A DNA stretch of 63,668 nucleotides, counting the filler, from Folioceros fuciformis (taxonomy: Eukaryota), in the NCBI GenBank assembly GCA_049999805.1. It is 4 parts of 2 records of this genome, joined end to end, with 100 filler letters (N's around TTAATTAATTAA, not from the genome) between each part and the next. Parts side by side here need not be neighbours in the genome. Positions count along the whole stretch, not along the records: positions 1 to 16,456 come from JBNGIO010006314.1; 3 more parts are not named here. The stretch is one strand, 5' to 3'. The position numbers and the translations under genes are program-made. This document shows, piece by piece, positions 1,941-32,935 of the stretch; position 1 is the first letter of the stretch; each line of letters opens with the position of its first letter. The notes under the pieces are model-generated. The model was not told the origin of the DNA. It made no database searches and saw only the letters and a list, made by a program, of their open reading frames with translations.

Positions 1941-4900
1941 ATGGAGCCCAGATTCCTCCACGCACTTACACTGACTGTACTTGCTGTGGCCGTCCTAAGG
2001 CTTGCTCCTACCTCCGATGCCGCCCGACAAGTCGCCCCATCCGCGGGAATTGGTCCCAGCGAAGGACGCTCCGGCAACGCCTCCTCCTCAATCGCAGCTA
2101 TTGGTAAGGCGAGGAAATGGACAGACGAGCAATTGGCTGGCCTCAATCTTCCGCCATTCAGAACCATAAACCGAAGGTCTTTGCTGAGCTGCGACGATCC
2201 CAACCCCTACCTTGCTATAAGCTTGGACACGGGAGGCCCGCTCAACGACGTGCAGGAGGTCTCTGTCACGGTGTCAGGAGTTCTTGACCCAAGCGACAAG
2301 GATTGGATTGCCATAATGTCGCCCTCAGATTCGAAGTGAGTTTGAATTCCAAGCCTCTATTGGTCAGGAGGAGTCTCTGTGAGACTGTGTCACTCTGGAG
2401 TTGGTGGGATGCATGTAGTTTGCACTGTGCTTTCCATACCTGACTCGGGGATCCCGACCAGCACCGGCCTCTGTCTGCAGAACAAGGCGCTGTACGTTGA
2501 AACAGGAGACCTCAGCAGTCTGCCTCTGCTTTGCCACTATCCTGTCAAGGTACGAGGCCACCATGCTGTGATGCCGGTCAAGGCGGTCCAAGTTCTTCGC
2601 TTACAGTTGCAATTATGGTCTCTCAGTTTTTGTACGTGAGTGCCGATCCCGACTATCTTAGCTGCGCGAACAGCCAGTGCCAGAAGTCCGTAGCCGGTGT
2701 CTGCATAGTGAAGACATGCAGTGGCACGGTCAAATTCAGGCTCATCAACATCCGCACCGACGTTGTGTTTGTCTTCTTCACTGGTGGGATGGATACTCCC
2801 TGCGTTCTCACTCAGTCCGACACACTTTCGTTTGGCAACCCCGCGTCTCCTCTGTATCCGCATCTCAGCAGCTTGGTTTCCTCGGGGACTAGGGTAACCT
2901 AGGCTGCTCTGTCCCTTGTTCCTGTCTCACTGGACCACGAGCTTCCGCCTGTGATTGTACTAAACACGCACTCGGTAGAAGTTGATTTGATCAAATGTGC
3001 GGCTGCAGATCACGGTGACATGGGTGAGTGGCAACGGTGATACTCAACAAGTTCGATGGAGTCAACAGCAGGCGTCTTCCTCCGTGGATTCATTCCGAGC
3101 CAGCGACATGTGTGGTCAGCAAATTTTATACCATAATCTCCTCTGCTGTTTGCTTCCATGCATGGTGGAGTCATACTTGGGGAGCACTTGTGTAGATGGG
3201 GTGCCCAATCCGGCAGCGGACTTCGGATGGCATGATCCTGGATATATCCACAGCGCAGTCATGTCAGGACTGTCACCTTCCACCTCCTACAGCTACTCTT
3301 TCGGCAGGTAACACTCTCTATACGCAGCTGCTCTTGCCGTTTGGGGAGAGCTGTGCCTCATCGATCCCTGAACCACGCTCGTTGATGCCACAGTGATGCA
3401 GCGGGATGGAGTCCAAGCATCAGCTTCCGAACCCCTCCTGCAGCTGGCAGTGGCAGTCTCAAATTCATAATTTATGGAGACATGGGCAAAACTGAGCAAG
3501 ACAACGGTTTGGAGCATTACATCCAAGTAAGATGGATGAAGATTGCCTGAAGGATAGGCAAGAGGATTTATTGCAGAAATGTTGAAAGCTAACGGCGCAG
3601 ATCGTTGACTTGTACAGCCAGGAGCGCTGGGAGTGATAAACGCAGTTGCTGAGAGAGTGGCAAACGATCAGGTGGATGTTGTTTTCCACATAGGGGACAT
3701 CAGTTATGCAACTGGATTCCTTGTAGAGTGGGATTCGTTTTTGGAGATGATCACCCCCGTGGCGTCTCATGTCTCCTACATGACCGCCATAGGCAATCAC
3801 GAACGGTAAAGGCGTGTGCAGCTCGGTAGTACCGTATTGACACTTCTCCGGGGACTGACTAAATCGTCATTCCCAAATGTGACAGCGACTTTCCAGATTC
3901 CGGATCCTACTACGGACTTCCAGATTCAGGTGGGGAATGTGGAGTTCCATACAACAAGTATTTCCCAATGCCTGTACAGGAGGCGGACAAGCCTTGGTAC
4001 TCGATTGAGTTTGGACCAGTGCATTTCACCGTGATGTCCACAGAGCACGAGTGGTCATCAGGATCCGAGCAAGTGGGTTTGAAACTCACGATTAACTCTG
4101 CTGCGGACTCTGACCAATAGGCGGTAATGACACACATTGTCTTTTTTCTGTCACAGTACAGCTGGATTCAGTCGGACCTTCATTCTGTTGATCGGACTCG
4201 CACACCATGGGTGATCTTTGCTGGGTAAGAGGTTTGACAGCAATTTTTTGTTTGCCCTTTTTCATGGTTGCCTGCTCATCTATGCGTCTGTAGACATCGA
4301 CCAATGTACTCTTCGGTGAAAGCCGGCTTGGCTTCAGCCCTGGCGCCTAGCGTTGACCCCGACTTTGTGGCGGCAGTCGAGCCCCTCCTTTATGATGCAC
4401 AAGTAACACTAGCAATAACCTAGCCCTGTTCTTGGTTGGCTTGTCCAGCTCCTGAAGCCGAAAATTGGGCAACTGCAGGTAGACGTGGTTTTCTGGGGCC
4501 ACGTGCACAACTTTGAAAGGACATGTTCCGTGTTCCAAGGAAACTGTGCTGTAGGGGATGAAACTGCTCCAATCCACGTTGTGGTCGGCATGGCAGGATT
4601 TCAGTTGGATGACTTTCAGGATGATGTGAGTAACTGGATCTCAGGAACTGGGTCAATGAACTGCAGGAGCCGAGCTGCACTAACCTGGTCGTTGTTATTG
4701 TTTTTTCTTTGGTCCCCAGACCCCCACTTGGAGCGTATTCAGGACGTCTCAATATGGATATGCTGAGATCTCCGTCGATTCTGTCACAGAAGGTTCACAG
4801 CTTACCTGCAACGTAAGTGGCTCCCACCACTCCCATGAACGAAGAGCGTGTTGCATGACAGTTTTGCCTAATCACCATATTCTGTCCTCGCAGTTTGTGA

Positions 4901-4953
4901 CGGCGTCAGATGGGAACGTGGTAGACTCGTTTGTGCTGGACAAACACCTGTGA
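1941..4953 (+). CDS. Purple acid phosphatase / nucleotide pyrophosphatase-phosphodiesterase-like (PAP1/24/27 group), multi-exon, with signal peptide
   Basis: Spliced translation gives TGDLSSLPLLCHYPVK, INIRTD and DFGWHDPGYIH, plus all five metal motifs: GDMG, GDISY, GNHE, FAGH(RPMY), GHVH. GT-AG introns; TGA at 4951-4953. Confidence 0.92.
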
Positions 4954-5146
4954 CGTACGTCGCTGCTTCCTATATAACGTTATGTATCGGTGTATATAGA
5001 TTGTAGAACTGTGCCATAGCTTCGATAAAGAGAAACTCCCGTCCATGACCGTATCTCCAAAATTGATAACTAGAGTCAGCAAGGCAGATAGAACCCACCC
5101 CTTTATTTTCCACTATGAAAAGAATGTTGTAATTTTACAAAAACTG

Positions 5147-8100
5147 TTAAGACCATATATCCCTCACATAGCGGCCTTGCTTTGTCATCTCGTTGAGATG
5201 AGCAATTGCCATACTTTCCTTAAGACCGCCATGCACCTGAAGTACCTGAAGAAGTGCTAAGTGAACATCCTTTGCCATGCTGGCTCCATCCCTGCAATCC
5301 AGAAGGACGATATCACGTTATTACGAAAAACTTCTTTTATCACCATTCAAACGTAGATCGATAAGACGTTTCTGACGATACCGCAACATACCCACAAATG
5401 TAGACGTGGCTGCGAGTGTTCAGTAGTACAGTGCACAACTCCTGACCATGCTCTTTCATCTTGTCCTGAACATACACCTGCAACACGTGCACAAAACACG
5501 TCACAAAGGGAGCAGTCAGCAATATCACTCAATGCCGCAAAATTCTACGGACGCCAGCTCACTTTCTTCTCTGACGCTCGAGAAAATGCCACTTCGAAAT
5601 AAGAAAGTGTCCCATCCTTGGCAAACTGCTCGAAGTCACTCTGGTATAGATNNNNNNNNNNNNNNNNNNNNNNNNNNNNNNNNNNNNNNNNNNNNNNNNN
5701 NNNNNNNNNNNNNNNNNNNNNNNNNNNNNNNNNNNNNNNNNNNNNNNNNNNAGATAGTCTTCTTCTGCCCTTCGACATCCAAAAAACAACCAAGAGTCGC
5801 CCACATCCGACTCTGGAGATACTTGCATGGCCTTGCGACGTTCCTGAAGAAATCCTCGAAAAGGAGCCACACCAGTGCCTGGCCCAATCATGATGATGGG
5901 TGCGCTTAAATCAGCAGGATGGTGAAACGCACCACCACTCTTGATGAAAATAGGTAGCTGAAGATCGGCCACATCTCCCCTTGTTTCCAGCTCCAACACC
6001 TTTTCCAACCAATTAGTGCAAACCCCCTTGAAGACTCTCCCTTCTTGCCTTTCGAACTTCACAACACTAAAAGCTATGTCGATGCTATCAGGGCTCTCCG
6101 CAGGTGAGCTGGAAACAGAATAATATCTAGAAACAAGAGGAGGTAGACTGTCAAACAGGTGATCAAGAGGTGGGTTACATGAAGGGAACTCGCCCAACAG
6201 GTCAACAACACTTGGCCGACCTTCCAGAATATCTTTGGCATAAAGCTCCCTTCCACCACGTGAGCACAGCAGAAGCAGCCTGGCCTTCTCTTCCGCATCT
6301 GATGTGTACTCAGCTAACATTCGGAGAAAACCTTTTGTAGGAACGCCTGTCAAACTACAGTTTTTCAGAAGAGCAGTTCTCACTGAACAAGGACATTTGA
6401 TGTGCGTACAGACTGCTCCAGCGCCATCCTCTATTCCTTGTAGTCTAAACAACTTGCTTCCATCAGTCCTTAATCTTACTAAAAGGTTATCCACCAGTTC
6501 CTCACTGTTCAAAGGCATTATCCCAATTGAGTCTCCTGGATGATATCTAATGCCACTTCCCTTGATGTTGACCGTCATGTGAATTACCTTTCGGTCAGAC
6601 CATTTTGGTGTCATGTATTTAGCTGAGCATACTGAGGCCAAAAATGGGGACGCCGGAGTGAAGTCCTGTTGATCTCCATGAACACCGTTCTCCACTGTCC
6701 CCAAGTCTGCCAGTTCACTCTCTTCCCAGACAATACGTGCACGGCATGGCTGCAACGCAGGCACACCAACTAGCTTGATTTCCTCGGTTGGTGGAGCAAC
6801 GGTAATAGATGCCTCAAACTCTGGGGCACTTCCGCCTTGCAAAGCAGCTGTCTGCATGGCTGCTTTCAAAGGTCCCCATAAACCGGCTGTCCACTTATCC
6901 ACAACATCTTCAAGCCTGCAAAAGTTTATTGCAGATATTCACTAAGGGTCATGCACATCATTCCAGGCGACTTCTACACAAAGACTGTTAACAAGAGAAC
7001 CGAGGTACATTAGAGAAGCCACGTAATTTACCCTTCAACTTCATCGGCCTCGCAACTTTTATAAAAGCAGTGAGCGCCAAGCTCAGAGAAGCGAGTATTG
7101 AAAGTTTTTGGCACCCCCATAAACTTGGTGTAATTCGAGTCCCCAAGTCCTGCAGAAACAGCAGTAACACAGAGAAATGGCAATGTTTGGCATGTGCGCA
7201 CAAAAGGCCTGGGATCTCCAAATTCCGGTGGGAAGTTTGGCAGCTCTCAAGGTCTGGTAATGATATATCGCGGACCGCGATAAAGGTGAATTCTTACCAC
7301 AGACAGAATACCATACGTTCCTCAGATAGTTACGCTCTGAAGCCTTCCTTATGTTTTGATAAAATCTGTCACAATTTTCAGGTGGATCTCCATCTCCAGT
7401 GCTAGACACCACAAGGACAACGACCTGAATAGTTGGAGAGCAGGCCAGTTTTGCCTAAAAATAAATATGAAGGGATGACTGTTATGTGGATTACACATCC
7501 AAATTGCTTGAATTCTGACTATGATCTTCACAGGAGCACACAAGGCTTGGGGCTCACAACAAAAGAACTGGAACTTGGCTTACCAGCGGAAAGTCATTCA
7601 TTGCGAACACACGCGACTTAATCCCCCTGCCAGGAGCTTCCGCAGCAATCCCTTTAGCAATCTCCATGGCATTGCCAGTTTGTGAACCATACAGGACTAA
7701 CAAATCCGACTGCCCTGTCACACCTGCAAGTAACTTAACATATGCCTTTGATGGACAGAGGGAGCTCATGAAAATCGCAGGCGAGCGAAAACTGAGAGAT
7801 CTAGCAGCTTAGATTCAGGAGAGCAATGATAACGAACCCGCTGGAGACGACCTTGCAGTTCTTGCTCTTAAAGCTGCAGCCATAGCTCTGGCGCCAGGAG
7901 AAGCAGACACGCTGTCTTTCAGCTTGGACAGATCGGGCCCTTTAGATTTGTCCTCGAAGTCGCTCACAGGAATTGATTGCTGATCAGAAGATTTTGTAGC
8001 TGGTTCCTGGGGACCTCCAAGCTTGGCCCCCGGAGTCGCGCCCGATCCAGGTGTGTCGTCTGCCAACAATTCTTCCTGACCACTTTTCTGCTCGATGAAT

Positions 8101-8507
8101 CCCACAGGTAGGATCCCCCCCTGCGCATCCCCACTTCCAGGAAAAGGGCCATTTTCTACATCCCCGTCCCCTCCACCATTTGCAGTCAAAACCCCTGCTC
8201 CGGTGGCACTCCCGGTGACGTCAGCCACCCGTTCCCCTACCAGAACAGCCCCCTGCATTTCTGATGCAGGGGGTCCCGCCTTCGGCACACCGGCCTCACG
8301 ATCCACGGAACTGCTCGGCTCCAAGTCTCCATCAGGCCCTTCTCTCGAAGGTGCCTCGGGTTTGGGTGCGTAAACCAGGACCGCAACGAATCCCAGAACA
8401 ACGGAGATCGACACGGGAGAAAAGAACAGCACAGGGAAGAAGAACAACAAGACGAGAAGCGGAACAGACAGCAGAACAAGAAAAACATGATTTCCCATCA
8501 GCCCCAT
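5147..8507 (-). CDS. MTRR: Methionine synthase reductase (diflavin FMN/FAD/NADPH reductase) with ~220-aa N-terminal extension
   Basis: In-frame exons give [114 protein letters not shown] and C-terminal RYVRDIWS*. These match MTRR better than CPR or NDOR1/ATR3. Exon 8507-7838 joins in frame through intron 7837-7724. Confidence 0.88.
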
Positions 8508-8964
8508 GGCAGCACAAACCGTCGTAAGTCAGCCAAGCCAGGCTCTGGAGCTACCAACATCCAGATTCCCGACCCCCATTCCTTTCCAACACAGAGCCAA
8601 TCTACAATTCTGAAGAGACAACAAGCGCTGTGGTACGAACGACTACAAAGGTCCGAACATTGGGTCCCTGCAGGGACCCAATTAGACCCAGAGAAAGGTT
8701 TGCCCACCACGAGACACAAAATCAGACGAACACAATAGACCTTGCTCGCCGATCAAAGCCAGGGATTTTTGAACGAACCGCAAAACTCCATGAAATAAAC
8801 TGCGCACAAAATTCGACAACAGCTGAACGAGATTCGAATACTATATTGCAACAAGTACTATCTTCATTTAAGAATGTCATTTACATTTGGTGTCATTAAA
8901 AACTATGCTATTCTCAAGTATTCAGAAGTGATATTATATCAAACAAACATGAATATTTTAGGGT

Positions 8965-9441
8965 TTACGGTTTAGAGGCTACATTATCATAATAAGGATT
9001 TAACGGCGATGTATCATATCGGATGTAACAATCATGCAATCCTATAGTTGCATGACGAGAACTTTTACAAATCTCAAAAACAAGGTTACAGGCAGTTTGA
9101 AGACAATATTCGCATTCAGCCATTTGAAGAAGATGAGAGCAACCACCGTCTGCATATACCGTGCGATAATCTTGGTATACACGATAATCAGGACTCACAT
9201 TTGTTGGCTCATCAAGAGGAGCAACGCTCGAGGCACTATATGAGTAGTCATGTGAAGGAGTCATTCTTACCACCTCCCGCATGGCCACTTGTGCAGCTTG
9301 TATGACAAAAATATTTCCATCGAGTCTATCTGAACTGCACCTTTGTAAAGTGACAGCTACGTTCATGGATTCTACATATGATATGAGAAAAGAAGTCCAT
9401 AGAACTAGTAGCCCACCCAACGAGATTTTGGAGTATACCAT
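8965..9441 (-). CDS. Secreted single-domain Gnk2/DUF26 (stress-antifungal) protein
   Basis: Hydrophobic signal peptide; C-X8-C-X2-C motif (CSHLLQMAECEYC) and DCYIRYD; intronless. Confidence 0.82.
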   Translation of the reverse strand: MVYSKISLGGLLVLWTSFLISYVESMNVAVTLQRCSSDRLDGNIFVIQAAQVAMREVVRMTPSHDYSYSASSVAPLDEPTNVSPDYRVYQDYRTVYADGGCSHLLQMAECEYCLQTACNLVFEICKSSRHATIGLHDCYIRYDTSPLNPYYDNVASKP

Positions 9442-11082
9442 TTTTAGTACTATGAAGTAGAATCAATATCTACTAAAACATTGAAGATCCTTGGTTCCAA
9501 CTAACAACACCATCACTTACTTCACACTCAAAGAATGAGACGGAGATGAAGAAAAGATAATGAGTAGATCTAAGAATCAAACTTTCATGAACAACAAGAG
9601 AAGCACATATATGAGATTGATGAGATTGAGGTGTGGTTAATCAATCAATCGTTGCATATGGATTGTATTATAGCAGCAGGAGATTAATACATGTGAAAAA
9701 TTCTTTGATCCATCTAAATTATGCTTGCAAGAAGCATATCCAAAAAATATACAATGGATATGACAGTCTCCACAGTTTTGGCAATCCTACAACATTAGGA
9801 GGTTTATGCTCATGAAATATTCACAACAAAATTCTGGTTGATCAACGTAAGCTTGTCTCAGTTGACCAGCATACGTATGCTTTTATATTTTATGTATATT
9901 ATTATTATTATTAACACTATTTATCTTTTTAAGTTGAATCTAAGTAATCATATAATATAATAAATTATATAAATAATAAATATCAATAGCTTTTTTGGTC
10001 AACCATAATCATTATATGTTATAGTAGCATCTAAAGGTGGCTTATGTTCTGAAAACTTCTGTCTCACAAGTAATGTCATAAAGGGTAATGGTATGGAAGC
10101 AGTTGTACAATGAACCTACCCACTATAAGATAGTTCTAGAAGATCTTGATGTAATACCTATTTCAATAAAGATAATATGCCATGATTGTGTATTGTATTT
10201 AGAGATTTTTTTTAATTTTAATTATATTTTTATTATATAAAATAAATATATCCACCAATAACACATCCTATTTTTCAGTGACCATGTAAGCCATGTAAAC
10301 GACATGGGATGCATCACTGTAAAGACCTATCCATTATTTTCTACAATTGAAAAAGAGATAGGAAAGTCCTATCTACTCTAAAGATAAGAGGAATGACCTG
10401 AGCAGCGCCAAATGTCAAAAGGGTTTTGGTCTATTTGGTGCTAAAGGAGCCATTTGATCACTATACACATTTTATCCCCATCTTTGTTGAGACTTTGCTA
10501 TGTTCTCTAATAAGGCATATTAGAGGCACATGAGAAGGGTTCCATTTTTAGAATAGAGTGTTCTTTAGCTTAAAAATTTAAGATCAAAGTATGCAATCAA
10601 ACATATTAAGATAAAGCATATATAAAAAAAATTTCTTATAGCTTTAGAATAGAAATAATTCTAATTATATAAGGTTTAAGGTATATGTCTCAATAACCGA
10701 GTCCTTAACAAGTCTACCCAAGTCAATAGGGTAGTAAGACTAAACCTAGAGTGTTGAAATTTATTATGTGATAGAAGGTGTTGGCATATCTCTATCTCTC
10801 CTTCATCAAGCTGTCAATGTAATATATACTTTGTAGATCATTATATATTTAAATTTCTAAACTAACAAAGCTGATAGTGAAACTAAGCTTATGAGATAAA
10901 ACTATTTCAAGTGCAATGTACTATGGCATCTGCTCTTTTAGTAAAGTCTACTTATTAGTCCATCGCGTTATGGGTGGATTGCGGGTTAGGTGGGTTCACT
11001 GTGCGATCCCACATGAGACGATGCTCTTCGTGTGAGTGCACTCATTCAATAAGTGAGATAATTGCTTCTGCACTACTATTGA

Positions 11083-11529
11083 TCAAGGGGTAAGTTCTGT
11101 CAGGCAATTGTCGAACATGGTGGCGTCGAGGCGGAGACAGCAGTCAGTACCGGCAGAAGCTCGACCCCATCGGACGCTGCTGCACTGCGACCCGAGCTGC
11201 TTGGACACACGGTTCAGACAGGATGTGCAAGCTGCTTGGCTCAAGGTGTCACTGCAGGCGCCGCCTGCGTATGCTACCGGTCCCGCGTCGATGAAGACGG
11301 AAACCCCATAGTGGTAGCCATTGTAGGCCGTCTGCGCAACCACGTCATCTACCGCCACGCCGGTGGTGAAATCGACCAGCGGGCCTGATCTGCCGGTGGA
11401 TTCTCCGCACCTCACACTCACATCTGCTCCATCAACAGCATTAAGAACCAGGCTCGCGAGAAAGACGAGGAAAATGTACTTCGAAAGCGCTCCTGCTGTG
11501 TTAGATGTGGAAGTGACAGTGGCCATCAT
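11083..11529 (-). CDS. Secreted single-domain Gnk2/DUF26 (ginkbilobin-2-like) protein
   Basis: Signal peptide; TAYNGYHY, GPVAY, C-X8-C-X2-C (CSDTLSQAACTSC) and DCCLRLD. Confidence 0.85.
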   Translation of the reverse strand: MMATVTSTSNTAGALSKYIFLVFLASLVLNAVDGADVSVRCGESTGRSGPLVDFTTGVAVDDVVAQTAYNGYHYGVSVFIDAGPVAYAGGACSDTLSQAACTSCLNRVSKQLGSQCSSVRWGRASAGTDCCLRLDATMFDNCLTELTP

Positions 11530-11704
11530 CCGCTGCTGTCAGTGCTACCAATAATACGAGGCCTTCAGGGAGGGTGCGCGAAAAGGACTCGGATCGGATC
11601 TGGCCGCTCACCTTGCACGGTATAAGAGAATCGCGATTTAGGAAAAGTTGATGTTTGGAGCATCACTGACGTGCTACGATGCGTTTAGGGTTGAGGTCAT
11701 GGAA

Positions 11705-14625: not shown

Positions 14626-16456
<1,831 letters not shown>

Positions 16457-18947: not shown

Positions 18948-19127
18948 CTATATATATAGAGACCGATTCGATGGCTCGGTCTCTACGTATAAACTGCCTT
19001 TTTCGATAGCTAATGTGATGGATATATGTCCTTATTAAGTATGTTTTTTTATACTATTCTTGAGACCGGCCGCTTGCGATTTCTGGTCAGGTTCCCGATA
19101 ACCAGATTGGGGCCGCGAGGAGAGCCC

Positions 19128-19172
19128 GGGGGCAGGGGCAGGGGCAGGGGCAGAGGCCCGGGGGCGGTAGGG
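19128..19172 (+). promoter_or_regulatory. G-quadruplex-forming (GGGGCA)n tract between the divergent YY1 and PPR loci
   Basis: gggggcaggggcaggggcaggggcag: four G4+ runs with 2-nt loops. Function is unshown. Confidence 0.4.
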
Positions 19173-19451
19173 AGAGTTTCCACGGTCACCTGTGGCGCAT
19201 CTGGGGAGGTGGACGGATTGAAGAAAAAGGCGTCGTATCCACCTGGAACTCGGAATGTTGTTCAAGATTGCAATACTGTAGATAGCAAGATGTTAGTTGA
19301 AACCAAGAATGTTGCGTTTGTTGCCTTAGATCGGACCACGAGACAAGGTGAGGAAGTAAATTTAGGGCCGAATTTCGCTGTGATGGTCCTTGTAGGCGCC
19401 GGCATAGACATTCTCAGGCGTTTGTCTGGCCGATCCATTTGTGTGAGGCAC

Positions 19452-22400
19452 ATGCCCAGGTTGCGTCAAAGGATTCGCTTATTTATGGGTCGTCGTGCCT
19501 CCAAAGTTGAAGCTGGACAGGGACAGGCTTTGGGAGTTCTGCTACAATCCTACCCTTGTGTTTCCTCATCTGTCTCTATTACAATCGTGAAGAGGTGTGC
19601 AGTCAAGAAGGATCTAGTTCTGGGTCGCCTTGGCCACGCTTTTACTGTGAACACGGTACACGAGTCTGATACGTTCCTGTGCAACCACATTCTGCGAATG
19701 TATGCTTCTCATGGAAGGTTGCAAGATGCGATGGATGTGCTGGAAGACCAGATGCTTCCACGTGGTGTGCCATAATTTCTGCGCATGTCAAACATGGACA
19801 AGACAATCAGGCCATACAGCTGTGAGACCGGATGCGCAAAACAAGCGTGAAGCCAGATGGTCACGTATTCGGTGCAGCCCTGCAGGTCTGTGCAATAGGG
19901 TCAGACTTGAAAACTGGGCAGCAGGTGCATGGTGATGTGTTGTTGGCGTGTGGCGGTGAGCCTGATTTGTTCCTTTCTAGTTGCTTGGTGAATATGCGCG
20001 CAAAGTGTGGCAGCTTGCAAGACGCTCAGAGAGTTGTGGACGGGCTTTGAAGAAAAGATTTGGTGACGTGGACTGCTCTAATTGCAGGATATTCCAAGGA
20101 AGGCACTGGCACTGGTCAACAAGCCCTTAGTCTCTACAGTGCTATGCAAGAAGAAGGCTTGGTTGTATCGGATTCTGTGACATTTGTGTGTCTTTGGCAC
20201 GCCTTTGCCTCCGTGAGCTGGTGACCTGGCCAGGTTTGGATATGGGAAAGCGTCACTTCATCTCCAAGTAAGGAAACACGGACAAGAAGCTTATGTGTTT
20301 GTAGCCGTGCTTGCAGTCTGGTGAAAATGTATGTGAAGTACGGCAGCTTGGCAGATGCTCAAAGAGTGTTTGACGGACTTGCCCAGAAGGATGTAGTGGC
20401 ATGGAATGCTATGATAGCAGGCTATTCTCGGCACTGCTTGGGCCACGTAGCCGTACGTCTTTACAGTGCCATGCTAGTAGGAGGCATGTCGGTACCCGAT
20501 TCCGTGACATTTGTGTGTTCTCTTACAGGCATGCGCAAGTGTGGGTAACCTGGCTTTAGAGACAGGGAAACAGCTTCATGAAAAGATCAAGTGAAAGAGT
20601 TCACGAAGCTGATTAGTTGGTCGCCAGCACCGACCATGATAGCGAGAATGGCTTGAGACCAGGTGTGATGTTCCACACCCCTGCCGCAGCCATCTGCTGG
20701 TCGACGTTCGAGGCTAGCAAGGACCTTCTCCAGCACTGGAACGAGAAGCAGGGCCATTAGCGTGCGGCGTCTGGACGGATTACGGGTGTGGGTACCGTGT
20801 TAAACACCGTAGAGGTAGAAGGTGAGACGATTTGGGAGTGGTAGACATCAGGCTCGTGTGGTAGGAGGAGGCCTTCATTCCTGTGGTGATAGGATGGCCT
20901 CATTCTACCGCAGGTATTGTCGCTATGGCTTTATTCTGAGGGGCAAATCTTCGTTGGTAGCACCACAACGATCATTTGTAGAGTTTTAAGAAAAAGTTCC
21001 GACACCCTCCCCTGTGTCCTCTTTGGTACGCCATGTAATGTTCACACCGGAGCACACCATATAGCCTATAGCCAGTGGGATCTCCGGAACCACAAGCAGA
21101 TCCATGCGCGCATGGACAATGGGGGACACCAAGATGATGTATTTGAAGCCAGCACTTTAGTGAACATGTATGCTAAGTGTGTTGAGTTGCAAACCTCTCA
21201 ATCTGTGTTTGATGTACAGGGTCGAAACGATGTGGTCACATGGAATTCCATGATTGCTGGGTATTCCCGTCAGGGTATGGGGCAGAGAGCTCTTAATCCC
21301 TACAGTGCCATGGAAGAAGGAGGCATGGTTTTATCTGATTGCATGACATTTGTGTCCCTCTTGCAGGCCTGTGCAAGTGTAGGCCTTCTCTTCGGCTTTG
21401 GAGAAGGGAAAGCTGCTTCATGCACAAATAAGGGAACAAGATCTCCAAGCTTGATCTGTTTGATGAACCTGTACTCTTAAGTGTGGTAGCTTGGAAGATG
21501 CACAGAGAGTGTTTGACGAAGTCAGCCAGAAAATTTTTTGTGACATGGACTACTCGTATTGGAGGCTATTCCCAGCAGGGCATGGGCCAGAAAGCCCTTC
21601 GTCTCTACAGTGATACTTGCAAGAAGAGGGCTCAACGGAGCCAAATCGTGTGACATTTTTGCATAGCAGTGAAAAGACCAAGGGCTTCATGGCCAATGCT
21701 CTGGTGGGAGTACCTCCCCCATCATTGCATTCCACATCACCGCATCTTTTTGGTTGAAGGCATCGCTGCACCTAATTCAGTGACTTTTGTGTGCCTCCGA
21801 CAGGCATGTGCAAATGTGGCAGCTTTGCATCTGGGAAGACGGTTACATGCACAGATTGAAGGACAAGGGCTCCATTCTGAAGAGATTGTAGCGGGTTGTT
21901 TGATAAACATGTAAGGGAAGTCCGAGAGCGTGGCTGATTCATGCGCAGCAGGTGCTTGATGCTCTGCCTGTAAGAGGCGTGAGTGCACTGATTGCACCCT
22001 ACGCCTGTCAAGGAAAGATTGAAATGGTCTTTGACTTGATTGAAAGATTGAGAGACGTTGGCATACAGCTATTAGGTATTGCATTCCTCAGTGCAGTGAC
22101 AGTGTGCAGTCATGCAGGTGAAGTGAGCAAGTGTAGACCGTACATATTTTGAAGCTATGAACTGGCTGCAATACAACATAACTCCCACAGTGGAGCACTG
22201 CACATGCACGGTGGACCTCCTTGGCCTTGCCGATCGCCTAGACGAGGCACTAGTGGTGACAACGACAATGGCTATGGTGCCCAACTCTGCAGTTTGGCAC
22301 ACCCTCTTGTGTGCTTGTCGAAAGTGGAGCAACGTGGAGGTGGGATGGCAGCCATTCAACCAAGCAGTGGAGGTGTACAAGGAAGATGCTGCAGCTTATG

Positions 22401-22545
22401 TGTCGATATGGATGATACATACCACCGCCCAGACGTGGGAGTAGGCACGTGAGATGCAGATGAGGAGAATACAAATTAAGGCTTGCAAGCAGCCAGGTCA
22501 TACGTGGTGAACAGGCAGGCATACATGGCCTGGTGCACCTCTAGC
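19452..22545 (+). pseudogene. PLS-class PPR (E/E+) organellar RNA-editing-factor pseudogene
   Basis: Repeated LVNMYAKCGSL, DVVAWNAMIAGY and PDSVTFV motifs; E motifs EHCTCTVDLLG and VWHTLLCACRKWSNVE; KQPGHTW. Many stops, frameshifts and insertions. Confidence 0.88.
20650..20907 (+). pseudogene. Inverted copy of the mitoferrin last-exon end plus 3' UTR, inserted in the PPR pseudogene
   Basis: Aligns by eye to the reverse complement of ~46022-46278 (GLRP.VMFHTPAAAICWST.EASKDLLQHWN and downstream UTR). Confidence 0.9.
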
Positions 22546-23202
22546 AAACTTCTGTTCATTTGGAGGAAGCTTCTGGATGTGGACCTTGTCAGAACTCTCA
22601 AAGTTGTCCGAAAGAAGATCAGGCTTGCTAGCTCCAAGCTCCATGTGCAGAGCCCTACGACATGTGCAGACCCCCGGAATTCTCTTGCATCCGGCGTACA
22701 CGCTGCCGCAGATGAAGAGGAGGATCAAGCAGAGATTGAACAAGAAAGCACCGATGATGAAAGTGATCCTCTCCTGGCCCACGACGATCGACACCGACGC
22801 ACAAAATGCGGCAACGAGGCACTGGACAGAAACAAAGCAGAGCGCTGTCCCACTCCACGAAATCATGCTGGGCGGCAACAAAAACGAGATGAGGACAGCG
22901 AAATAAGCAAACGCCATGGCACACCCATTCGCGACGAGGAAGATACAGAAAACCGTCGACTGCGGCAGCAGATTTGCCTGTCCTGGCTTAAACTTGTCAC
23001 ACTCTGTGTCCGTACTGACGCCCCCCGGAGGCTGCAGCACTGCAGCGAATGAACACGCCATGATCAATGCGCACAACGTCAGTAGCTTCTGCACCTGGCC
23101 GTCAAGCTGGCCGTCGGCGAACAACCGAAGCGACCCCGAGCTCGTGTCGTCCCGCCGCGTCGGCATCTCAGAGTGGCCCCGCCACGCCGCTGATTGCTGC
23201 AT
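22498..23202 (-). CDS. Stand-alone PGG-domain membrane protein without ankyrin repeats, copy 1
   Basis: LLTLCALIMACSFAAVLQPPGG followed by three further hydrophobic helices; paralog at 33970. Confidence 0.75.
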   Translation of the reverse strand: MQQSAAWRGHSEMPTRRDDTSSGSLRLFADGQLDGQVQKLLTLCALIMACSFAAVLQPPGGVSTDTECDKFKPGQANLLPQSTVFCIFLVANGCAMAFAYFAVLISFLLPPSMISWSGTALCFVSVQCLVAAFCASVSIVVGQERITFIIGAFLFNLCLILLFICGSVYAGCKRIPGVCTCRRALHMELGASKPDLLSDNFESSDKVHIQKLPPNEQKFARGAPGHVCLPVHHV

Positions 23203-23258
23203 CGAGTAGACCTGCGCTGATGGCTTGCCAATGGCTGAGGGAGGCCTCTTCCAGGCGA

Positions 23259-23408
23259 GATTGTACGCAGGCCGAAGCTCCAGGTACTTGCTCCAATCTT
23301 TGGAGCCGCGCGCTCAATCAAACAGTTGGGGGCAAGATTTGTATGCAGGCGGAAGCTCCAGGTACGTGCTCCAATCTTTGCAGCCGCACGCTCAATCAAT
23401 AGTAGGGA
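23259..23408. repeat. Two-copy 78-bp tandem duplication upstream of PGG copy 1
   Basis: ttgta(c/t)gcagg..gaagctccaggtac..gctccaatcttt recurs at 23261 and 23339. Confidence 0.85.
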
Positions 23409-29339: not shown

Positions 29340-32300
29340 GGTCATTGATGCCAGAGCGAGCCATACCTGTCCAGCAGGGAAAAACAACTTGCTCAAACCC
29401 ACTTATACATTTCAGGATGTATTCCAAATTGATGCAGAATAGCAAAGAAAACACTCAAAATATCCTGCTGGATAGGAACATCCTTTGATAGTCGAAAGCC
29501 ATACCTGCAAACCGTAAGTGTACGGGAAATTGAATTACAAGACTAGCAAATACCAGTCATTCCTAGTGCAGCATAGTGCTCAAATCTTTTGAGTGCATGA
29601 AGTTCACGCTTTCACCAGGAAACGGCAATCTCTCTGCAAACTTGTGATGCAGATGTCGAGTACGATATCCTGATCGACAAATTCGCACCACTTCCAGCAC
29701 ACCACAACATTGTAGTTGCTGCAACACTAGCTCCTGCTCATACACCCCTGGATGCTGTGAAGTGCTTGGTTTAATGAAGCGAATGAAGTGAGGGGCTGTG
29801 CTCTCCAGTCTTTGCATCCATTTCGACAACTGGCCCTGCACTCATAGACAAGCCACATATTCACGTCTTGCTTCACACATCAGATCCAAATACCCCGTGT
29901 ACCTTGTTCATGAAAACTTAGTAACTTGAACTTGGTTGCCACAGTCTGCTTCTGTGATTCATTGACTGCAAGTCCTCTCCTTATTGAACTGATCAATTTC
30001 TTTACACTTTGAGAAATCTCGGCTGCAAAGAGCTGGGGCTCCGGGCACTCCCAGAATAAAAGAAGATTTAGAGGCTCGGCATGCAACAGATCCCTGTTCT
30101 CCTCCAAAAATCCTGTTCAATCATACACAACCTGCAAGCGGTGACAGGGTTGTAGCCTTCACACATTAACTGAACGCAGTTCTGGCATTGTACAATAAAG
30201 GGGACAAAAGGCAGGATCTTACTTACATCTCCTGCATGATGGCAAGTCCGGAACAGGGATGTGTTGCATGCCGACCAGGAATCCGGGTCTGGAAACAAAC
30301 GTTTCCCTGTTCCGGATGTTTCCAGCAATGAGATCAACCCAAGAGGTCTCTGCAAACCCGAGCATTGGCATTGGTGATTCATGACTGCCTCAACTGCTGT
30401 ATTCTCTCCATTGCAGGGATAGAACTTTATACCTCAAGGGAGGTCAACCGACCTTCTCTATCAGATCTAGACATTCTTCATTATCTTCAAAATCAACTTC
30501 GGTCCAATCAATCTCCTCTGACGTGTACTCCTGAAATGGATATGAATGAGCTATCTTTAGTAGTGAAACTTAAACAGAATGACGAACAGTCCAACTGAAC
30601 TATGTTCAATAAAAGGTTGACAAGTAGACATTGCATACAAAAAATGCACAAGGGCTAGCGACATGGCACCTCTTGCTCGAGTTTAAACAAGTGTCTGTTG
30701 AAATGCTGCTGCAACCTTTCATTCGAAGAAATCATAAATCATCGCTCAAAGATGTTTCTCTGCCCATGACACACGAGGAATTATACTTCAAGACACTTCC
30801 TGTCTCAAAGACATGATAAAGCATAGAGAAACAATTTCTCCCAAGCGCTTCAAGCAAGATTATACCTTGAAAGACTCAAACCCATAAATGTCCACAATAC
30901 TCATAGATCTGCCAGTCCTGCGCTTGCCCACTTCCAGGGATTTGTTGACACGTTCCACCAGCAACTCCAACAGTCCTGCATAGACAGATTTAGCCAGTGC
31001 ATCTCTAGGGTCGATAGCCTGACAACACAGAAGGCTTTACAAAGGTGAGCACACAGTGAACGGAATTCACCACAGTAACATTATCTGGACAAAAGCTTAA
31101 CGGAACACACCACACCTGGGCGACGTGAAGACTTCGTACTGCGTCATCAGACCCAGCTCGCATCTTTGTTAAGCACAGAGCTGAAGTCAGGTCTTCCGCT
31201 TTGCATGGCAACAAATGTGCAGCTGCTTCAAGGGCTGAGAAATGACAGAGTACCCTTCAGCAAAAACGAAGACTGAAATTTGTGACGTACGACTTACACC
31301 AACCAATTTGAGAATCCACTGGCCCTACTCACCTTCAACCTCAACCACATTTACATGACCATCATTCTCCACCACATGGAAGGAAATGCTTCCAATACAG
31401 AGCACTGCTGAAATCATGGCAAATGCAACTTCTTGATCCTCTTCGCTGATTTGCACAACATTCATTGCGCTCTGGAAACAGAGAACAAGGCATATGGTCA
31501 TTAGAGACCAAGACGTCAGACAAACAGAAAACCACCGGAGCAAGTACCAAAGAGATATAAACAGGTCGCATCGAGCATTTAAACACTCATTGCTTACCAT
31601 AACAGCATGAAACTGGTGTCCATCATTCACATTCTCGATCCGCATACAATCACTTTGGTTCAAGAACCGATTATGCTCGGCTGGCCTGACCCACAATCTC
31701 TGTACGTAGAGTTCAAGAAAAGGTATGAAGACCCGATGCAAAGCAGAAGAAACCTCTGCTAATCAATAATTTCTACAGGTGGCCGAATTCGGCAATACCT
31801 CCAAAGAGACCTATCAACCCCAGAACAGAGCTGATAAAATATGTGATAATTCCGCTCGCCTTTTGCCTTTTCTCCAGGATGAGAATCAGCATGTGCTAGA
31901 GAGACAAATAGGTGGACAGACACACAGAGTTCCTGAGAGTTACCTTCTCCGGCAAGTCTGTAAAGGTCCAGGAAACAGACAGGAACATGCAACCAAAACC
32001 GATTGGGTAACCGTGAGACGATCCAGCTGCTGCACAATTGCACAGGTATACAAAGAAGATATAGGGTAGCACAAGCCGGAAGACACGCTTACATGTTTGA
32101 ATCTTGGCACCACATATCTTGCCCGATCTAGCAAAACGTATGCCAATGAACTTTCCCTGCAGAAAAACCCCGCAGCAGCCCCCACACCCATGTGATGAGC
32201 TATGAATCTTGATGGCACGCCAGCTGAGTGAAGGATGTGATGAACAAATACTCACACAACGACTAGAGTTGTCAATTTTAAGCGTTTTGGCGTTTCCAGA

Positions 32301-32935
32301 AGCCTCCAAATTGGATTGGTTTGCAGTATGTCATTCTCAACACCACTACCCCCTCCAAGAACAGCAATCAGATTCGGAAAAAAAAGATGGATTACCTTCA
32401 TGTCCGACATGTGGTATGCCAGTATCTGATGATTATGGACTAATTAATCTCGTCTGCAAAACAATTCAGGACCGGCGAGCACCGTGAAAGATCGTTCTCA
32501 CTTCACCTAGGCAAAAGCACATAGTCTTTGCCTTTGGAAGCGCACGACATGCAAGAGTCTTCTGCACTAACCTGAAATCTTTGCATTGTAAGCACTACCT
32601 GCCACAAGGTACACGTGAGGACTCAAATTTTCCCCATTCTTCCGATAAGCTTGGACATGATCAGCCTAATAATACAAGGGTACTTTCTTGAAGGGATTGA
32701 CAGCAATCAACACAGGTCCAGCTCTAGTCTGCAAAGGATACCAACATTCAGCGTCGTCGAAGTCCACCACATGCACAAGTGACAGAGTTGAAGGTTCCAA
32801 TCAATTCCCTTACGTGTATACGACGTGCTGGTCATATTTGCATTGCAGGTTGTGGAGCACTGCAGGCTCATTCAGCCGGGGATGTCGGGTTTCGGGCAGT
32901 CGGGCCGACAGACAGACTGCCCGACGCAGATCAGA
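29340..32935 (-). pseudogene. Myosin VIII motor-domain pseudogene with introns
   Basis: LNEPAVLHNL, GPVLIAVNPFK, LGGGSGVE..LQTNP, GNAKT..DNSSR, GERNYHIFYQLC, RDALAKSVY, GKRRTGRS.SIVDIYGFESF, PHFIR.IKP, QLQCCGVLEVVRI. Stops and frameshifts present; P-loop not found. Confidence 0.9.

What the first reader, a model, noticed from the sequence alone, without database searches (positions are those of the whole stretch)
5147..8507. Intact methionine synthase reductase in a land-plant genome: marker of vitamin B12-dependent metabolism
Seen: all exons splice in frame into a full FMN/FAD/NADPH reductase with MTRR-type segments ([55 protein letters not shown]). Known: MTRR reactivates cobalamin-dependent methionine synthase (METH); flowering plants lack METH/MTRR and use METE. 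The neighbours (PLS PPR, myosin VIII, DUF26, GLYR2) are land-plant genes, so this plant probably retains a B12 pathway fed by bacterial cobalamin (inference). I recall retention being reported for hornworts, so presence alone may not be new.
Basis: partly seen in the sequence, partly recalled or inferred. Interest (0 to 1): 0.75.

Follow-up and report, generated by a model that had tools for sequence, protein, structure and literature searches.

The report
Expressed methionine synthase reductase in a plant
This is an intact, transcribed gene for methionine synthase reductase, the helper enzyme of vitamin-B12-dependent methionine synthesis, in what is most likely a hornwort, and its presence in hornworts was already published in 2024.

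Summary
On the minus strand, 8507..5147, seven exons with six GT..AG introns give an 854-aa flavodoxin + FAD + NADPH reductase. A spliced, error-free contig from a run of the same organism confirms every junction. It also reads straight through the 100-N run inside exon 5, so that run is an assembly artefact.

With bacterial outgroups, the protein sits among streptophyte-algal sequences named methionine synthase reductase (MTRR). That group joins animal, oomycete and Naegleria MTRR and excludes cytochrome P450 reductase (CPR) (SH-aLRT 97; AU p 0.02). It carries the MTRR residue at 24 of 35 columns that separate MTRR from CPR.

Three things remain open:
- No NDOR1/ATR3 sequence could be fetched, so that family is excluded only indirectly.
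- No genome is held, so the partner enzyme METH could not be sought.
A neighbouring gene places it inside land plants but outside liverworts, mosses, lycophytes, ferns and seed plants. A hornwort fits this by elimination.

Dorrell et al. 2024 already reported METH and MTRR in hornworts only, so this is already known. The scan has no earlier relevant note.

One side observation may be new: a membrane-anchor-like N-terminus, shared with 13 of 31 named green-algal MTRRs.

The parts
8508..8733 (-). 5' UTR as far as the RNA-type contig reaches (226 nt). It holds three upstream ATGs opening short ORFs of 5, 16 and 20 codons.
   Evidence: X3 contig piece 7836-8733; uATG/uORF count.
7838..8507 (-). 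Exon 1, coding part (aa 1-224). A lineage-specific N-terminal extension with no Pfam family and no detectable homologue.
   Evidence: The frame is open for 224 codons, while the other two sense frames hold 7 and 5 stops. Pfam finds 0 families. phmmer against 1.84 billion representatives finds 0 hits.
8373..8486 (-). Strongly hydrophobic segment, aa about 8-45: a predicted membrane anchor or signal anchor. It is followed by a spacer of about 180 aa rich in G, A, S and P.
   Evidence: The maximum Kyte-Doolittle 19-residue mean is 2.88, starting at aa 8. By the same measure, 7 of 7 plant CPR membrane anchors score 2.26-2.86.
7584..7723 (-). Exon 2: start of the FMN (flavodoxin-like) domain, with [12 protein letters not shown].
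   Evidence: Pfam Flavodoxin_1 E 2.1e-06; junctions.
7298..7454 (-). Exon 3: FMN domain, with [13 protein letters not shown].
   Evidence: Pfam Flavodoxin_1 E 0.0018; alignment; junctions.
7032..7149 (-). Exon 4: end of the FMN domain, with GLGDSNY ... ADEVEG.
   Evidence: Pfam Flavodoxin_1 E 8.1e-06; junctions.
5563..6915 (-). Exon 5, the large exon: linker, FAD-binding domain and first half of the NADPH-binding domain ([25 protein letters not shown]). It is interrupted in the assembly by the N run.
   Evidence: Pfam FAD_binding_1 8.6e-55 and NAD_binding_1 4.8e-06. PDB matches are CPR at 198 bits and human MTRR 2qtl at 187 bits. The RNA-type contig is continuous across it.
5652..5751 (.). Run of 100 N: an artificial scaffold gap with no sequence missing. 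The 4 letters AGAT stand on both sides of it.
   Evidence: Three contigs (X3, X4, X6) join 5647 to 5752 with 'both = 4'. The flanks are read. Relative P0122 reads through the same place in one ORF.
5392..5477 (-). Exon 6: NADPH-binding domain (YVQDKM ... HVYICG).
   Evidence: alignment.
5147..5291 (-). Exon 7, coding part: end of the NADPH domain ([10 protein letters not shown] ... RYVRDIWS) and the TAA stop at 5149-5147.
4900..5146 (-). 3' UTR, extent unknown. The same RNA-type contig runs on into the convergent neighbouring gene (purple acid phosphatase, + strand).
   Evidence: X3 contig piece 4900-5290, with 2120 further letters beyond 4900. The fn3_PAP domain lies at 2501-2902 +.

Best explanation
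The gene encodes an orthologue of methionine synthase reductase (MTRR), inherited vertically along the streptophyte line. It sits in a land plant that is most probably a hornwort. Shown here: the gene is intact, spliced and transcribed; it has the full FMN + FAD + NADPH architecture; and nearly all conserved family positions are kept. Inferred from what is established for MTRR: NADPH reduces FAD, electrons pass one at a time through FMN, and the FMN domain reduces inactive cob(II)alamin on the B12-dependent methionine synthase METH. S-adenosylmethionine then re-methylates the cofactor, returning METH to its catalytic cycle. The plant cannot make cobalamin, so the cofactor would have to come from bacteria. 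Also inferred: the first 45 or so residues form a membrane anchor joined to the enzyme by a flexible spacer of about 180 residues, so the reductase may work tethered to a membrane.
For: Gene model. The CDS is 2565 nt (854 aa, one terminal stop), with six GT..AG introns. A spliced contig of run X3 matches with 0 differences. Spliced orthologous contigs exist in two related organisms, whereas the DNA-type run X1 keeps the four upstream introns (its contigs break within 5407-5789, so the other two are not covered).

Domains and residues. All three Pfam domains are present. The window keeps 104 of 108 columns conserved in both MTRR and CPR, including the C-terminal ...DIWS.

Family assignment:
- In the whole-exon search, the rows that carry an organism's name (roughly 50 of 120; the rest are unnamed metagenome or transcriptome records) come only from green and streptophyte algae, a haptophyte, oomycetes, Balamuthia and animals; most are named methionine synthase reductase, and the few other names are generic automatic ones such as NADPH-ferrihemoprotein reductase. 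The best reach 42-46% identity.
- At columns that separate MTRR from CPR, the window has the MTRR residue at 26 of 30 and the CPR residue at 2. Defined from non-green MTRR only, the counts are 24 of 35 MTRR, 4 CPR and 7 other.
- In a tree with bacterial CysJ and BM3-like outgroups, one clade holds the window, its relative P0122, the green sequences and animal, oomycete, Naegleria and Balamuthia MTRR (SH-aLRT 97). CPR lies outside it. The window sits in the streptophyte subset (SH-aLRT 99).
- Forcing the green sequences together with CPR costs 22.3 lnL (AU p 0.0195).
- In a FastTree of all 215 rows, the clade of the window and the 4 animal MTRRs holds 177 rows, none of them CPR-named.
- The animal anchor is a true MTRR: Saccoglossus P0121 scores 457 bits to human MTRR 2qtl and 300 bits to CPR.

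Against NDOR1/ATR3. None of the 240 listed rows is named NDOR1 or ATR3. No non-CPR row comes from a fungus or an annotated land plant, although those groups all possess NDOR1. Plant CPRs do appear in the list.

Literature. METH and MTRR were found in hornworts and in no other land plants (PMC11439496, section 5).

Taxon. The neighbouring mitoferrin is 62-73% identical to liverworts, mosses, lycophytes, ferns and seed plants alike. In its tree it branches inside land plants but outside each of those groups.
Against: - No NDOR1/ATR3/Tah18 sequence could be fetched, so the trees cannot show where that family falls.
- The two FMN-domain exons have the NDOR1 FMN domain (4h2d) as their best or only diflavin match in the PDB (E 0.0059 and 0.33). 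The green-clade profile scores 4h2d at 128.9 bits against 102.8 for a CPR FMN domain. No MTRR FMN domain appeared among the PDB matches for comparison.
- The language-model look-alike search ranked two NDOR1-named clusters at 0.92 (ranks 2 and 3). A chordate MTRR cluster came only at 0.87 (rank 28).
- By plain similarity, human MTRR is no closer than human CPR: 187 against 198 bits for the exon. With the green-clade profile, on FAD/NADPH-only constructs, the scores are 438.5 against 431.2 bits.
- The trees are 'quick' searches with SH-aLRT support only. Several rows have long branches or odd composition. The group tested by AU was chosen after the tree had been seen.
- METH was not sought in this genome because none is held.
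- The label 'RNA' for X3, X4 and X6 is the tool's guess. Only the absence of introns in those contigs argues that they are transcripts.
'Hornwort' is an inference by elimination.
Confidence: 0.85

Rival explanations
1. It belongs to the MTRR clade but no longer serves METH, or does not serve only METH. It could be a membrane-tethered diflavin reductase that passes electrons to another acceptor, or a relic kept in a plant that relies on METE.
For: The N-terminal hydrophobic segment scores as high as the membrane anchors of plant CPRs, which serve membrane-bound partners (2.88 against 2.26-2.86). METH could not be checked in this genome. Dorrell et al. state that active use of B12 by hornworts still awaits functional proof (passage).
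Against: The gene is intact and transcribed in three related organisms, and 104 of 108 universally conserved columns are kept. The literature reports that METH and the cobalamin-handling proteins CblC and CblD occur together with MTRR in hornworts. No other acceptor is suggested by any result here.
Confidence: 0.07
2. It is an NDOR1/ATR3-type reductase, or another unnamed diflavin paralogue, that automatic annotation has mislabelled together with its algal relatives.
For: FMN-domain motifs are shared with NDOR1: 4h2d is the best PDB match of exon 3 and the only diflavin match of exon 4. NDOR1-named clusters rank first among named look-alikes. No NDOR1 sequence was in any tree.
Against: NDOR1/ATR3 occurs in all land plants and fungi (recalled). 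Yet none of the 240 listed rows carries that name, and none of the non-CPR rows is from a fungus or an annotated land plant. This holds although proteins of 252-804 aa were eligible and plant CPRs did make that list. The clade contains animal proteins that match human MTRR at 457 bits. Its named members all come from groups reported, or recalled, to use B12-dependent methionine synthase. An independent reciprocal-best-hit and tree analysis placed hornwort sequences with streptophyte MTRR (PMC11439496, section 5).
Confidence: 0.04
3. It is a cytochrome P450 reductase (an ATR1/ATR2-type CPR) with an N-terminal ER anchor.
For: Human and rat CPR are the top PDB matches by bit score (198 bits). The N-terminus is anchor-like.
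Against: Plant CPRs form their own clade, apart from the window. Holding the green sequences with CPR is rejected (AU p 0.0195). Only 2 of 30, or 4 of 35, discriminating columns carry the CPR residue. Plant CPRs are only 43-49% identical even in the most conserved 126-aa stretch.
Confidence: 0.01
4. The gene is algal contamination of the assembly, or a recent horizontal acquisition, not a plant gene.
For: All named close relatives are algae.
Against: The gene lies on one stretch with DUF26, PLS-type PPR, myosin, kinase and mitoferrin genes. The mitoferrin branches inside land plants. The gene's introns are short GT..AG introns of 85-148 nt. Orthologues about 93% identical in nucleotides, with the same introns, are found in two related organisms, and a copy 67-69% identical in protein in a further relative. 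In the trees the window is a separate branch within streptophytes, not nested inside any algal genus.
Confidence: 0.02

Closest known systems
Hornwort MTRR reported by Dorrell et al. 2024 (Phil Trans R Soc B 379:20230354; PMC11439496)
   Same: A land-plant MTRR with Flavodoxin_1, FAD_binding_1 and NAD_binding_1 domains that groups with streptophyte sequences within Viridiplantae. This is what searches show for the window. The paper found it in Anthoceros genomes and in OneKp hornwort transcriptomes, and in no other land plants (section 5).
   Different: I could not confirm that the window's species is one of theirs, or even that it is a hornwort. In the sections and passages I read, the paper says nothing of an N-terminal hydrophobic extension, and 'transmembrane' has 0 occurrences in its main text.
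Human MTRR (PDB 2qtl/2qtz, FAD/NADPH domains)
   Same: Same three-domain enzyme family. 2qtl matches residues 31-387 of the large exon at 187 bits. An animal MTRR that matches 2qtl at 457 bits falls in the same clade as the window.
   Different: Sequence similarity is no higher than to CPR. Animal, oomycete and Naegleria MTRRs begin at or near the FMN domain: 12 of 13 non-green rows have no N-terminal extension of 60 aa or more. The window carries 224 extra residues with a hydrophobic start.
Streptophyte- and green-algal MTRR (Chara braunii P0010, Klebsormidium nitens P0126, Closterium, Spirogloea, Chlorokybus and others)
   Same: These are the nearest named relatives, at 42-48% identity, and fall in the same starred streptophyte clade. 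They share the linker motif KLVGVP.LQPCR. The Chara, Closterium and Chlorokybus proteins also have a hydrophobic N-terminus and a long spacer.
   Different: The window and its unnamed relative P0122 form their own branch (SH-aLRT 100). The N-terminal extension itself has no detectable sequence similarity to anything.
Plant cytochrome P450 reductase (ATR1/ATR2 type)
   Same: Same fold and cofactors, and an N-terminal hydrophobic anchor of similar strength.
   Different: A separate clade with different FMN-domain signatures: LATYGDGEPTDN and GLGNRQYE in CPR against [13 protein letters not shown] and GLGDSNY here.
NDOR1 / ATR3 / Tah18 (diflavin reductase of cytosolic Fe-S assembly)
   Same: FMN-domain motifs are alike: 4h2d is the best PDB match of exon 3 and the only diflavin match of exon 4.
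   Different: No NDOR1-named protein appears among the 240 best rows. The window's clade lacks fungi and annotated land plants, where NDOR1 is universal. A direct tree test was not possible.

Membership tests
Methionine synthase reductase (MTRR) | Diflavin architecture: an FMN (flavodoxin-like) domain, then a FAD-binding domain, then an NADPH-binding domain, in one chain | tested here: met
   Pfam finds Flavodoxin_1 in three exons, and FAD_binding_1 (8.6e-55) and NAD_binding_1 in the large exon. The spliced product is 854 aa.
Methionine synthase reductase (MTRR) | Conserved cofactor-binding and catalytic positions of the family are intact | tested here: met
   The window keeps 104 of 108 columns conserved in both MTRR and CPR. 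The four changes are M for L, N for D, S for D and F for L. [32 protein letters not shown] and the C-terminal DIWS are all visible in the alignment. Which of these bind which cofactor is recalled, not tested.
Methionine synthase reductase (MTRR) | Groups with bona fide MTRR, to the exclusion of CPR, in a tree rooted on outgroups | tested here: met
   The clade of the window, the green sequences and animal, oomycete, Naegleria and Balamuthia MTRR has SH-aLRT 97, with CysJ and BM3-like outgroups. The alternative with CPR is rejected (AU p 0.0195). In the FastTree of 215 rows, none of the 177 rows in the window's clade is CPR-named.
Methionine synthase reductase (MTRR) | Carries MTRR-specific residues where MTRR and CPR differ | tested here: met
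   26 of 30 columns. With the MTRR consensus taken from non-green species only: 24 of 35 MTRR, 4 CPR and 7 other.
Methionine synthase reductase (MTRR) | Distinct from the NDOR1/ATR3 paralogue | tested here: inconclusive
   For: none of 240 rows is named NDOR1 or ATR3, and no fungal or annotated land-plant member is in the clade. Against or neutral: FMN exons match NDOR1 4h2d best, and NDOR1-named clusters rank above a chordate MTRR cluster in the look-alike search. No NDOR1 sequence could be put into a tree.
Methionine synthase reductase (MTRR) | Long linker between the FMN and FAD domains (about 80 residues in the human enzyme; recalled) | tested here: inconclusive
   In the alignment, the stretch from GLW to the start of the FAD domain is about 76 residues in the window and about 66 in Selaginella CPR. 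Saccoglossus MTRR is far longer there. This feature does not separate green MTRR from CPR.
Methionine synthase reductase (MTRR) | Co-occurs with its partner, B12-dependent methionine synthase (METH), in the same genome | not testable with these tools
   No whole genome is held for this window. No B12-related Pfam domain was found in any of the 116 ORFs of 110 aa or more in the window. The literature reports METH in hornworts (PMC11439496, section 5).
Methionine synthase reductase (MTRR) | NADPH-dependent reductive reactivation of cob(II)alamin-bound METH | not testable with these tools
   This is a biochemical assay. Nothing here bears on it.
NADPH-cytochrome P450 reductase (CPR) | Falls in the CPR clade, with CPR-type FMN-domain signatures | tested here: not met
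   Only 2 of 30, or 4 of 35, discriminating columns carry the CPR residue.
NADPH-cytochrome P450 reductase (CPR) | N-terminal hydrophobic membrane anchor | tested here: met
   The Kyte-Doolittle 19-residue maximum is 2.88 at aa 8. All 7 plant CPRs examined score 2.26-2.86. This is a resemblance in how the protein may be placed, not evidence of membership.
NDOR1 / ATR3 / Tah18 | Orthologues are present in all land plants and fungi, so these should be the closest named relatives | tested here: not met
   No such rows appear among the 120 best proteins of 252-804 aa or the 120 best of 679-2000 aa. The second range excludes typical NDOR1 lengths, so only one search counts as a test.

The most novel reading that the evidence does not exclude
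MTRR of the green lineage, including this land-plant copy, is tethered to a membrane by an N-terminal anchor followed by a long flexible spacer. Reactivation of B12-dependent methionine synthase in plants and green algae would then take place at a membrane surface rather than free in the cytosol, as in animals. I found no paper describing this arrangement. A second, less likely novel reading (about 0.07) is that the window is not from a hornwort, which would add a new land-plant lineage that keeps B12 metabolism.
Probability: 0.35. Interest if true: 0.5.

Novelty: already known. Interest (0 to 1): 0.25.

Why it matters
Land plants are textbook examples of life without vitamin B12. An intact, transcribed MTRR shows that at least one land-plant lineage still carries the machinery that keeps a B12-dependent methionine synthase running. 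This bears on what the first land plants inherited from algae, and on possible vitamin exchange with bacterial or cyanobacterial partners. That point was made in print in 2024 for hornworts.

This window adds four things:
- a transcript-verified gene model;
- proof that the assembly gap inside the gene is not a real break;
- evidence of expression in three related organisms;
- the observation that the enzyme, like many green-algal MTRRs, starts with a membrane-anchor-like segment. If that anchor is real, it says something new about where the reaction takes place.

Tried and rejected
- **Whole-genome search for METH.** Not possible, because no genome is held.
- **Supplementary tables of Dorrell et al.** These would list the hornwort MTRR sequences and targeting predictions, and could have named the species. 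They were closed and I did not try again.
- **Earlier notes of this scan.** By place there were none. By words there were none. By sequence there was one unrelated bacterial CYP102 cluster, which I did not use.
- **Sequencing-run search.** No holder is on record as RNA, and the 'RNA?' labels are guesses.
- **Getting NDOR1/ATR3 sequences for the tree.**
  - A search restricted to the most conserved 126 residues, over proteins of 252-804 aa, brought CPRs but no NDOR1.
  - A FastTree of all 210 fetched proteins showed only two eukaryotic clades.
  - No other tool could supply such sequences.
- **PDB similarity as a classifier.** It does not separate MTRR from CPR for this protein. The scores are 187 against 198 bits, and 438.5 against 431.2 bits with a profile.
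- **Linker length as an MTRR hallmark.** It does not discriminate here.
- **Homologues of the N-terminal 224 residues.** There were 0 hits among 1.84 billion representatives. Low-complexity sequence may be filtered out, so this is weak evidence of absence.
- **The first tree.** It contained only CPR and MTRR-like rows, so 'groups with MTRR' followed trivially from the rooting. I replaced it with the outgroup-rooted tree.
- **A first regex count of N-terminal anchors.** It missed the FMN motif in 14 of 32 green proteins. I replaced it with the alignment-based count.
- **Protein-level conservation of exon 1 between the related organisms.** This could not be measured. The table of differences showed only 40 of 320 positions, none of them in exon 1.
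- **Literature on a membrane anchor in algal or plant MTRR.** Two full-text searches returned 6 and 7 papers. By their listed titles and abstract openings, none is about this.
- **Not run.** Structure prediction, fold search and complex prediction. The fold is not in doubt, and no METH sequence from this organism was available.
Full report
**What is there**

The finding lies on the minus strand. Reading from the ATG at 8507 to the TAA at 5149-5147, seven exons give a CDS of 2565 nt. This is 854 codons plus one terminal stop.

The six introns are 5292-5391, 5478-5562, 6916-7031, 7150-7297, 7455-7583 and 7724-7837. They are 85-148 nt long, and each has a GT donor and an AG acceptor.

Pfam finds Flavodoxin_1 in three small exons. 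In the large exon it finds FAD_binding_1 (E 8.6e-55) and the start of NAD_binding_1. It finds nothing in exon 1.

**Transcript evidence and the N run**

A search of public runs found three that hold half or more of the sampled words: X1 (0.97), X2 (0.82) and X3 (0.74). All three carry one coded organism. No holder is on record as RNA, and the 'RNA?' labels are the tool's guesses.

Laid on 4900-8800, the single X3 contig (5158 nt) matched with 0 differences and skipped exactly the six introns. The DNA-type run X1 has a contig that runs uninterrupted through the four upstream introns (5789-8185); its contigs break within 5407-5789, so the two downstream introns are not covered.

Contigs of two other coded organisms (X4, X6) skip essentially the same introns; two junctions were placed 4-5 nt differently, and their piece across 5563-5647 is not among the rows shown. 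They differ from the window at 78 and 75 of about 1000-1160 positions in the large exon. Contigs that lack the introns are best explained as transcripts, so the gene is expressed in three related organisms.

The window has 100 N at 5652-5751, in the middle of the large exon. All three spliced contigs join 5647 to 5752 with four shared letters, and AGAT stands on both sides of the run. The joined reading is ...[17 protein letters not shown]..., in frame. A relative's single ORF (P0122) reads EDYLYQEDFEGF at the same place.

No shift of that joint gives GT..AG ends. The run is therefore a scaffolding artefact, not an intron and not a lesion. X1's own DNA contigs also break here, leaving 5652-5788 uncovered. 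I cannot explain that.

**Which diflavin reductase**

Plain similarity does not decide the question. Against the PDB, the large exon scores 198 bits to human CPR and 187 to human MTRR 2qtl.

In the large protein collection, the 120 best proteins of 679-2000 aa are dominated by sequences that sources name methionine synthase reductase. These come from green and streptophyte algae, a haptophyte, oomycetes and animals, and the best reach 42-46% identity.

A second search scored only the most conserved 126 residues, over proteins of 252-804 aa. It brought three kinds of hit:
- a closer unnamed relative, P0122 (74% identity in that stretch; 67-69% overall);
- more algal MTRRs;
- named plant and crustacean CPRs, from about 107 bits down.

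My first tree held only CPR and MTRR-like rows. Its 'MTRR clade' was therefore just the other side of the root and proves little.

I then fetched bacterial relatives, translated CysJ-type and BM3-type reductases from them and rebuilt the tree.
- The window, P0122, 11 named green sequences and 7 animal, oomycete, Naegleria and Balamuthia sequences form one clade (SH-aLRT 97).
- CPR (SH-aLRT 92), the BM3-like pair and CysJ all lie outside it.
- Within the clade, the window lies in a streptophyte set with Chara, Klebsormidium, Spirogloea and Closterium (SH-aLRT 99).

Holding the green rows together with CPR costs 22.3 log-likelihood units (AU p 0.0195). I chose that group after seeing the tree.

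A FastTree of all 215 rows gives two eukaryotic clades. One holds 33 rows, of which 30 are CPR-named. The other holds 177 rows with the window and the four animal MTRRs, and none of them is CPR-named. The animal anchor is sound: Saccoglossus P0121 scores 457 bits to human MTRR and 300 to CPR.

Residue by residue, the window keeps 104 of 108 columns conserved in both families. Where the families differ, it has the MTRR residue at 26 of 30 columns and the CPR residue at 2. When the MTRR consensus is taken from six non-green species only, the counts are 24 of 35 MTRR, 4 CPR and 7 other.

**The NDOR1 gap**

I could not obtain a single NDOR1 sequence, and several results show that the question is real:
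- The FMN-domain exons have the NDOR1 FMN domain (4h2d) as their best or only diflavin PDB match (E 0.0059 and 0.33).
- A profile of the green clade scores 4h2d at 128.9 bits, against 102.8 for a CPR FMN domain.
- The language-model look-alike search put two NDOR1-named clusters at 0.92 and a chordate MTRR cluster only at 0.87.

The exclusion is therefore indirect. None of the 240 listed rows is named NDOR1 or ATR3. None of the non-CPR rows comes from a fungus or an annotated land plant, although these groups all have NDOR1 (recalled). Proteins of NDOR1 length were eligible. A land-plant ATR3 orthologue would be expected to find other plants' ATR3 first, and it finds none.

The named members of the window's clade all come from groups reported, or recalled, to use B12-dependent methionine synthase. 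Dorrell et al. reached the same assignment for hornwort sequences by reciprocal best hits and trees (section 5). I put the NDOR1-type reading at about 0.04.

**Which organism**

No name is given, and the run names are coded. The neighbours are as follows:

| Gene or element | Position |
|---|---|
| Purple acid phosphatase | 2501-2902 + |
| Two DUF26 (Stress-antifung) ORFs | 8965-11538 - |
| Protein kinase | 14760-16402 - |
| PLS-type PPR gene | about 19.0-22.4 kb + |
| Two PGG-domain genes | 22498-23313 - and 33820-34683 + |
| Myosin | 31325-32330 - |
| copia-type retroelement pieces | about 34.9-36.5 kb and 41.5-41.8 kb |
| Mitoferrin-type carrier | 46511-47365 - |
| Choline-transporter-like gene | 52359-54600 + |
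| Thioredoxin exon | 61278-61646 + |

DUF26 and PLS-type PPR genes are typical of land plants (recalled).

The mitoferrin exon is 62-73% identical to liverworts, mosses, lycophytes, ferns, gymnosperms and angiosperms alike. Its best hit is an unnamed record at 76%. In a quick tree it falls inside land plants, but outside the starred liverwort, moss, lycophyte and fern groups and outside the seed plants. It pairs with that unnamed record (SH-aLRT 98).

The collection holds no annotated protein close to either gene, even though one of the related organisms has runs from at least five studies. A deep land-plant lineage without annotated proteomes in these sources fits hornworts.

[quoted passage not shown] I put 'hornwort' at about 0.9. 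This is an inference, not a test.

**How it most likely works**

- **Shown:** an intact, transcribed three-domain reductase of the MTRR clade.
- **Inferred from the family:** electrons flow from NADPH to FAD to FMN, then to cob(II)alamin on METH. S-adenosylmethionine re-methylates the cofactor.
- **Not shown:** that METH is present in this genome, or that the plant takes up cobalamin.

Among the 116 ORFs of 110 aa or more in the window, no B12-related domain appears.

**The N-terminal extension**

Exon 1 adds 224 residues ahead of the FMN domain. Its frame is open throughout, while the other two sense frames have 7 and 5 stops.

Residues 8-45 or so are strongly hydrophobic, with a Kyte-Doolittle 19-residue maximum of 2.88. 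The next 177 residues are rich in G, A, S and P. The segment has no detectable homologue in 1.84 billion representatives.

The layout, however, recurs. I located the FMN domain by local alignment and counted segments of 2.0 or more upstream of it:

| Group | Rows with such a segment |
|---|---|
| Named green-lineage MTRRs | 13 of 31 (13 of the 24 with an extension of 60 aa or more; two more score 1.98) |
| Non-green MTRRs | 1 of 13 (the haptophyte Pavlova) |
| Plant CPRs (control; their N-terminus is a known ER anchor, recalled) | 7 of 7 |

Truncated gene models may hide further cases. The same segment could instead be a signal or a targeting peptide.

Two literature searches found no paper that, by title or abstract opening, deals with this. 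The main text of Dorrell et al. has 0 occurrences of 'transmembrane'. Its targeting predictions are in supplements I could not see.

**Comparison with what is known, and verdict**

The central claim is in print for hornworts: a land plant keeps MTRR, and hence probably a B12-dependent methionine synthase (PMC11439496; I read the abstract, sections 5 and 9 and further passages). A 2026 preprint still cites this as an open lead; I saw its search listing and one passage.

I therefore rate the finding as already known, and at most a further species. The new pieces here are technical: a verified gene model, a false assembly gap and expression in three relatives. The anchor-like N-terminus is the one item I would follow up.

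Interest is 0.25.

Noticed in passing
window 5652-5751: A run of 100 N inside the largest MTRR exon is a zero-length scaffold gap. Spliced contigs of three organisms join its two sides in frame, and the 4 letters AGAT are repeated on both sides. The window holds 494 N in all, so other such gaps exist.
   Followed up: yes
window 8373-8486 (aa 8-45) and proteins P0004, P0010, P0031, P0035, P0048, P0049, P0064, P0068, P0070, P0080, P0091, P0103, P0113, P0062: A membrane-anchor-like hydrophobic N-terminus, followed by a long spacer ahead of the FMN domain, recurs in 13 of 31 named green-lineage MTRRs and in one haptophyte. It is absent from 12 of 13 animal, oomycete and amoeboid MTRRs. Plant CPR anchors score alike by the same measure.
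   Followed up: partly
window 8508-8733: The 5' UTR covered by the RNA-type contig has three upstream ATGs. They open short ORFs of 5, 16 and 20 codons, and two of them are in the frame of the main ORF.
   Followed up: no
window 5407-5413 and 5652-5788: Contigs of the DNA-type run X1 break here. One contig goes on after 5407 with 29 letters unlike the window, and nothing covers 5652-5788. This could be a heterozygous or repeated stretch, or an assembly-graph effect.
   Followed up: no
window 4900-5146 and below: The same RNA-type contig (5158 nt) covers MTRR and runs 2120 nt further into the convergent purple acid phosphatase gene. The 3' ends of the two genes therefore abut or overlap. A contig across two genes does not show a single transcript.
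   Followed up: no
window about 19000-22450, + strand: A PLS-type PPR gene with repeated ...W(N/T).(M/L)IAGYS... units and an E-like C-terminal part is spread over all three + frames, with many stops. It may be a decayed copy or contain several frameshifts.
   Followed up: partly
window 22498-23313 (-) and 33820-34683 (+): Two PGG-domain ORFs in opposite orientation share a long, nearly identical stretch (SLRLFADGQLD..VQKLL.LC..MACSFAAVLQPPGGV), which suggests a recent duplication.
   Followed up: no
window 34922-36473 (-) and 41469-41813 (-): Pieces of a copia-type LTR retroelement: integrase core, Pol beta-barrel, GAG-pre-integrase, an SH3-like domain and, 5 kb away, a gag piece.
   Followed up: no
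window 8965-9462 and 11083-11538 (-): Two ORFs with DUF26 (Stress-antifung) domains lie directly upstream of the MTRR gene, probably exons of one gene or a tandem pair.
   Followed up: no
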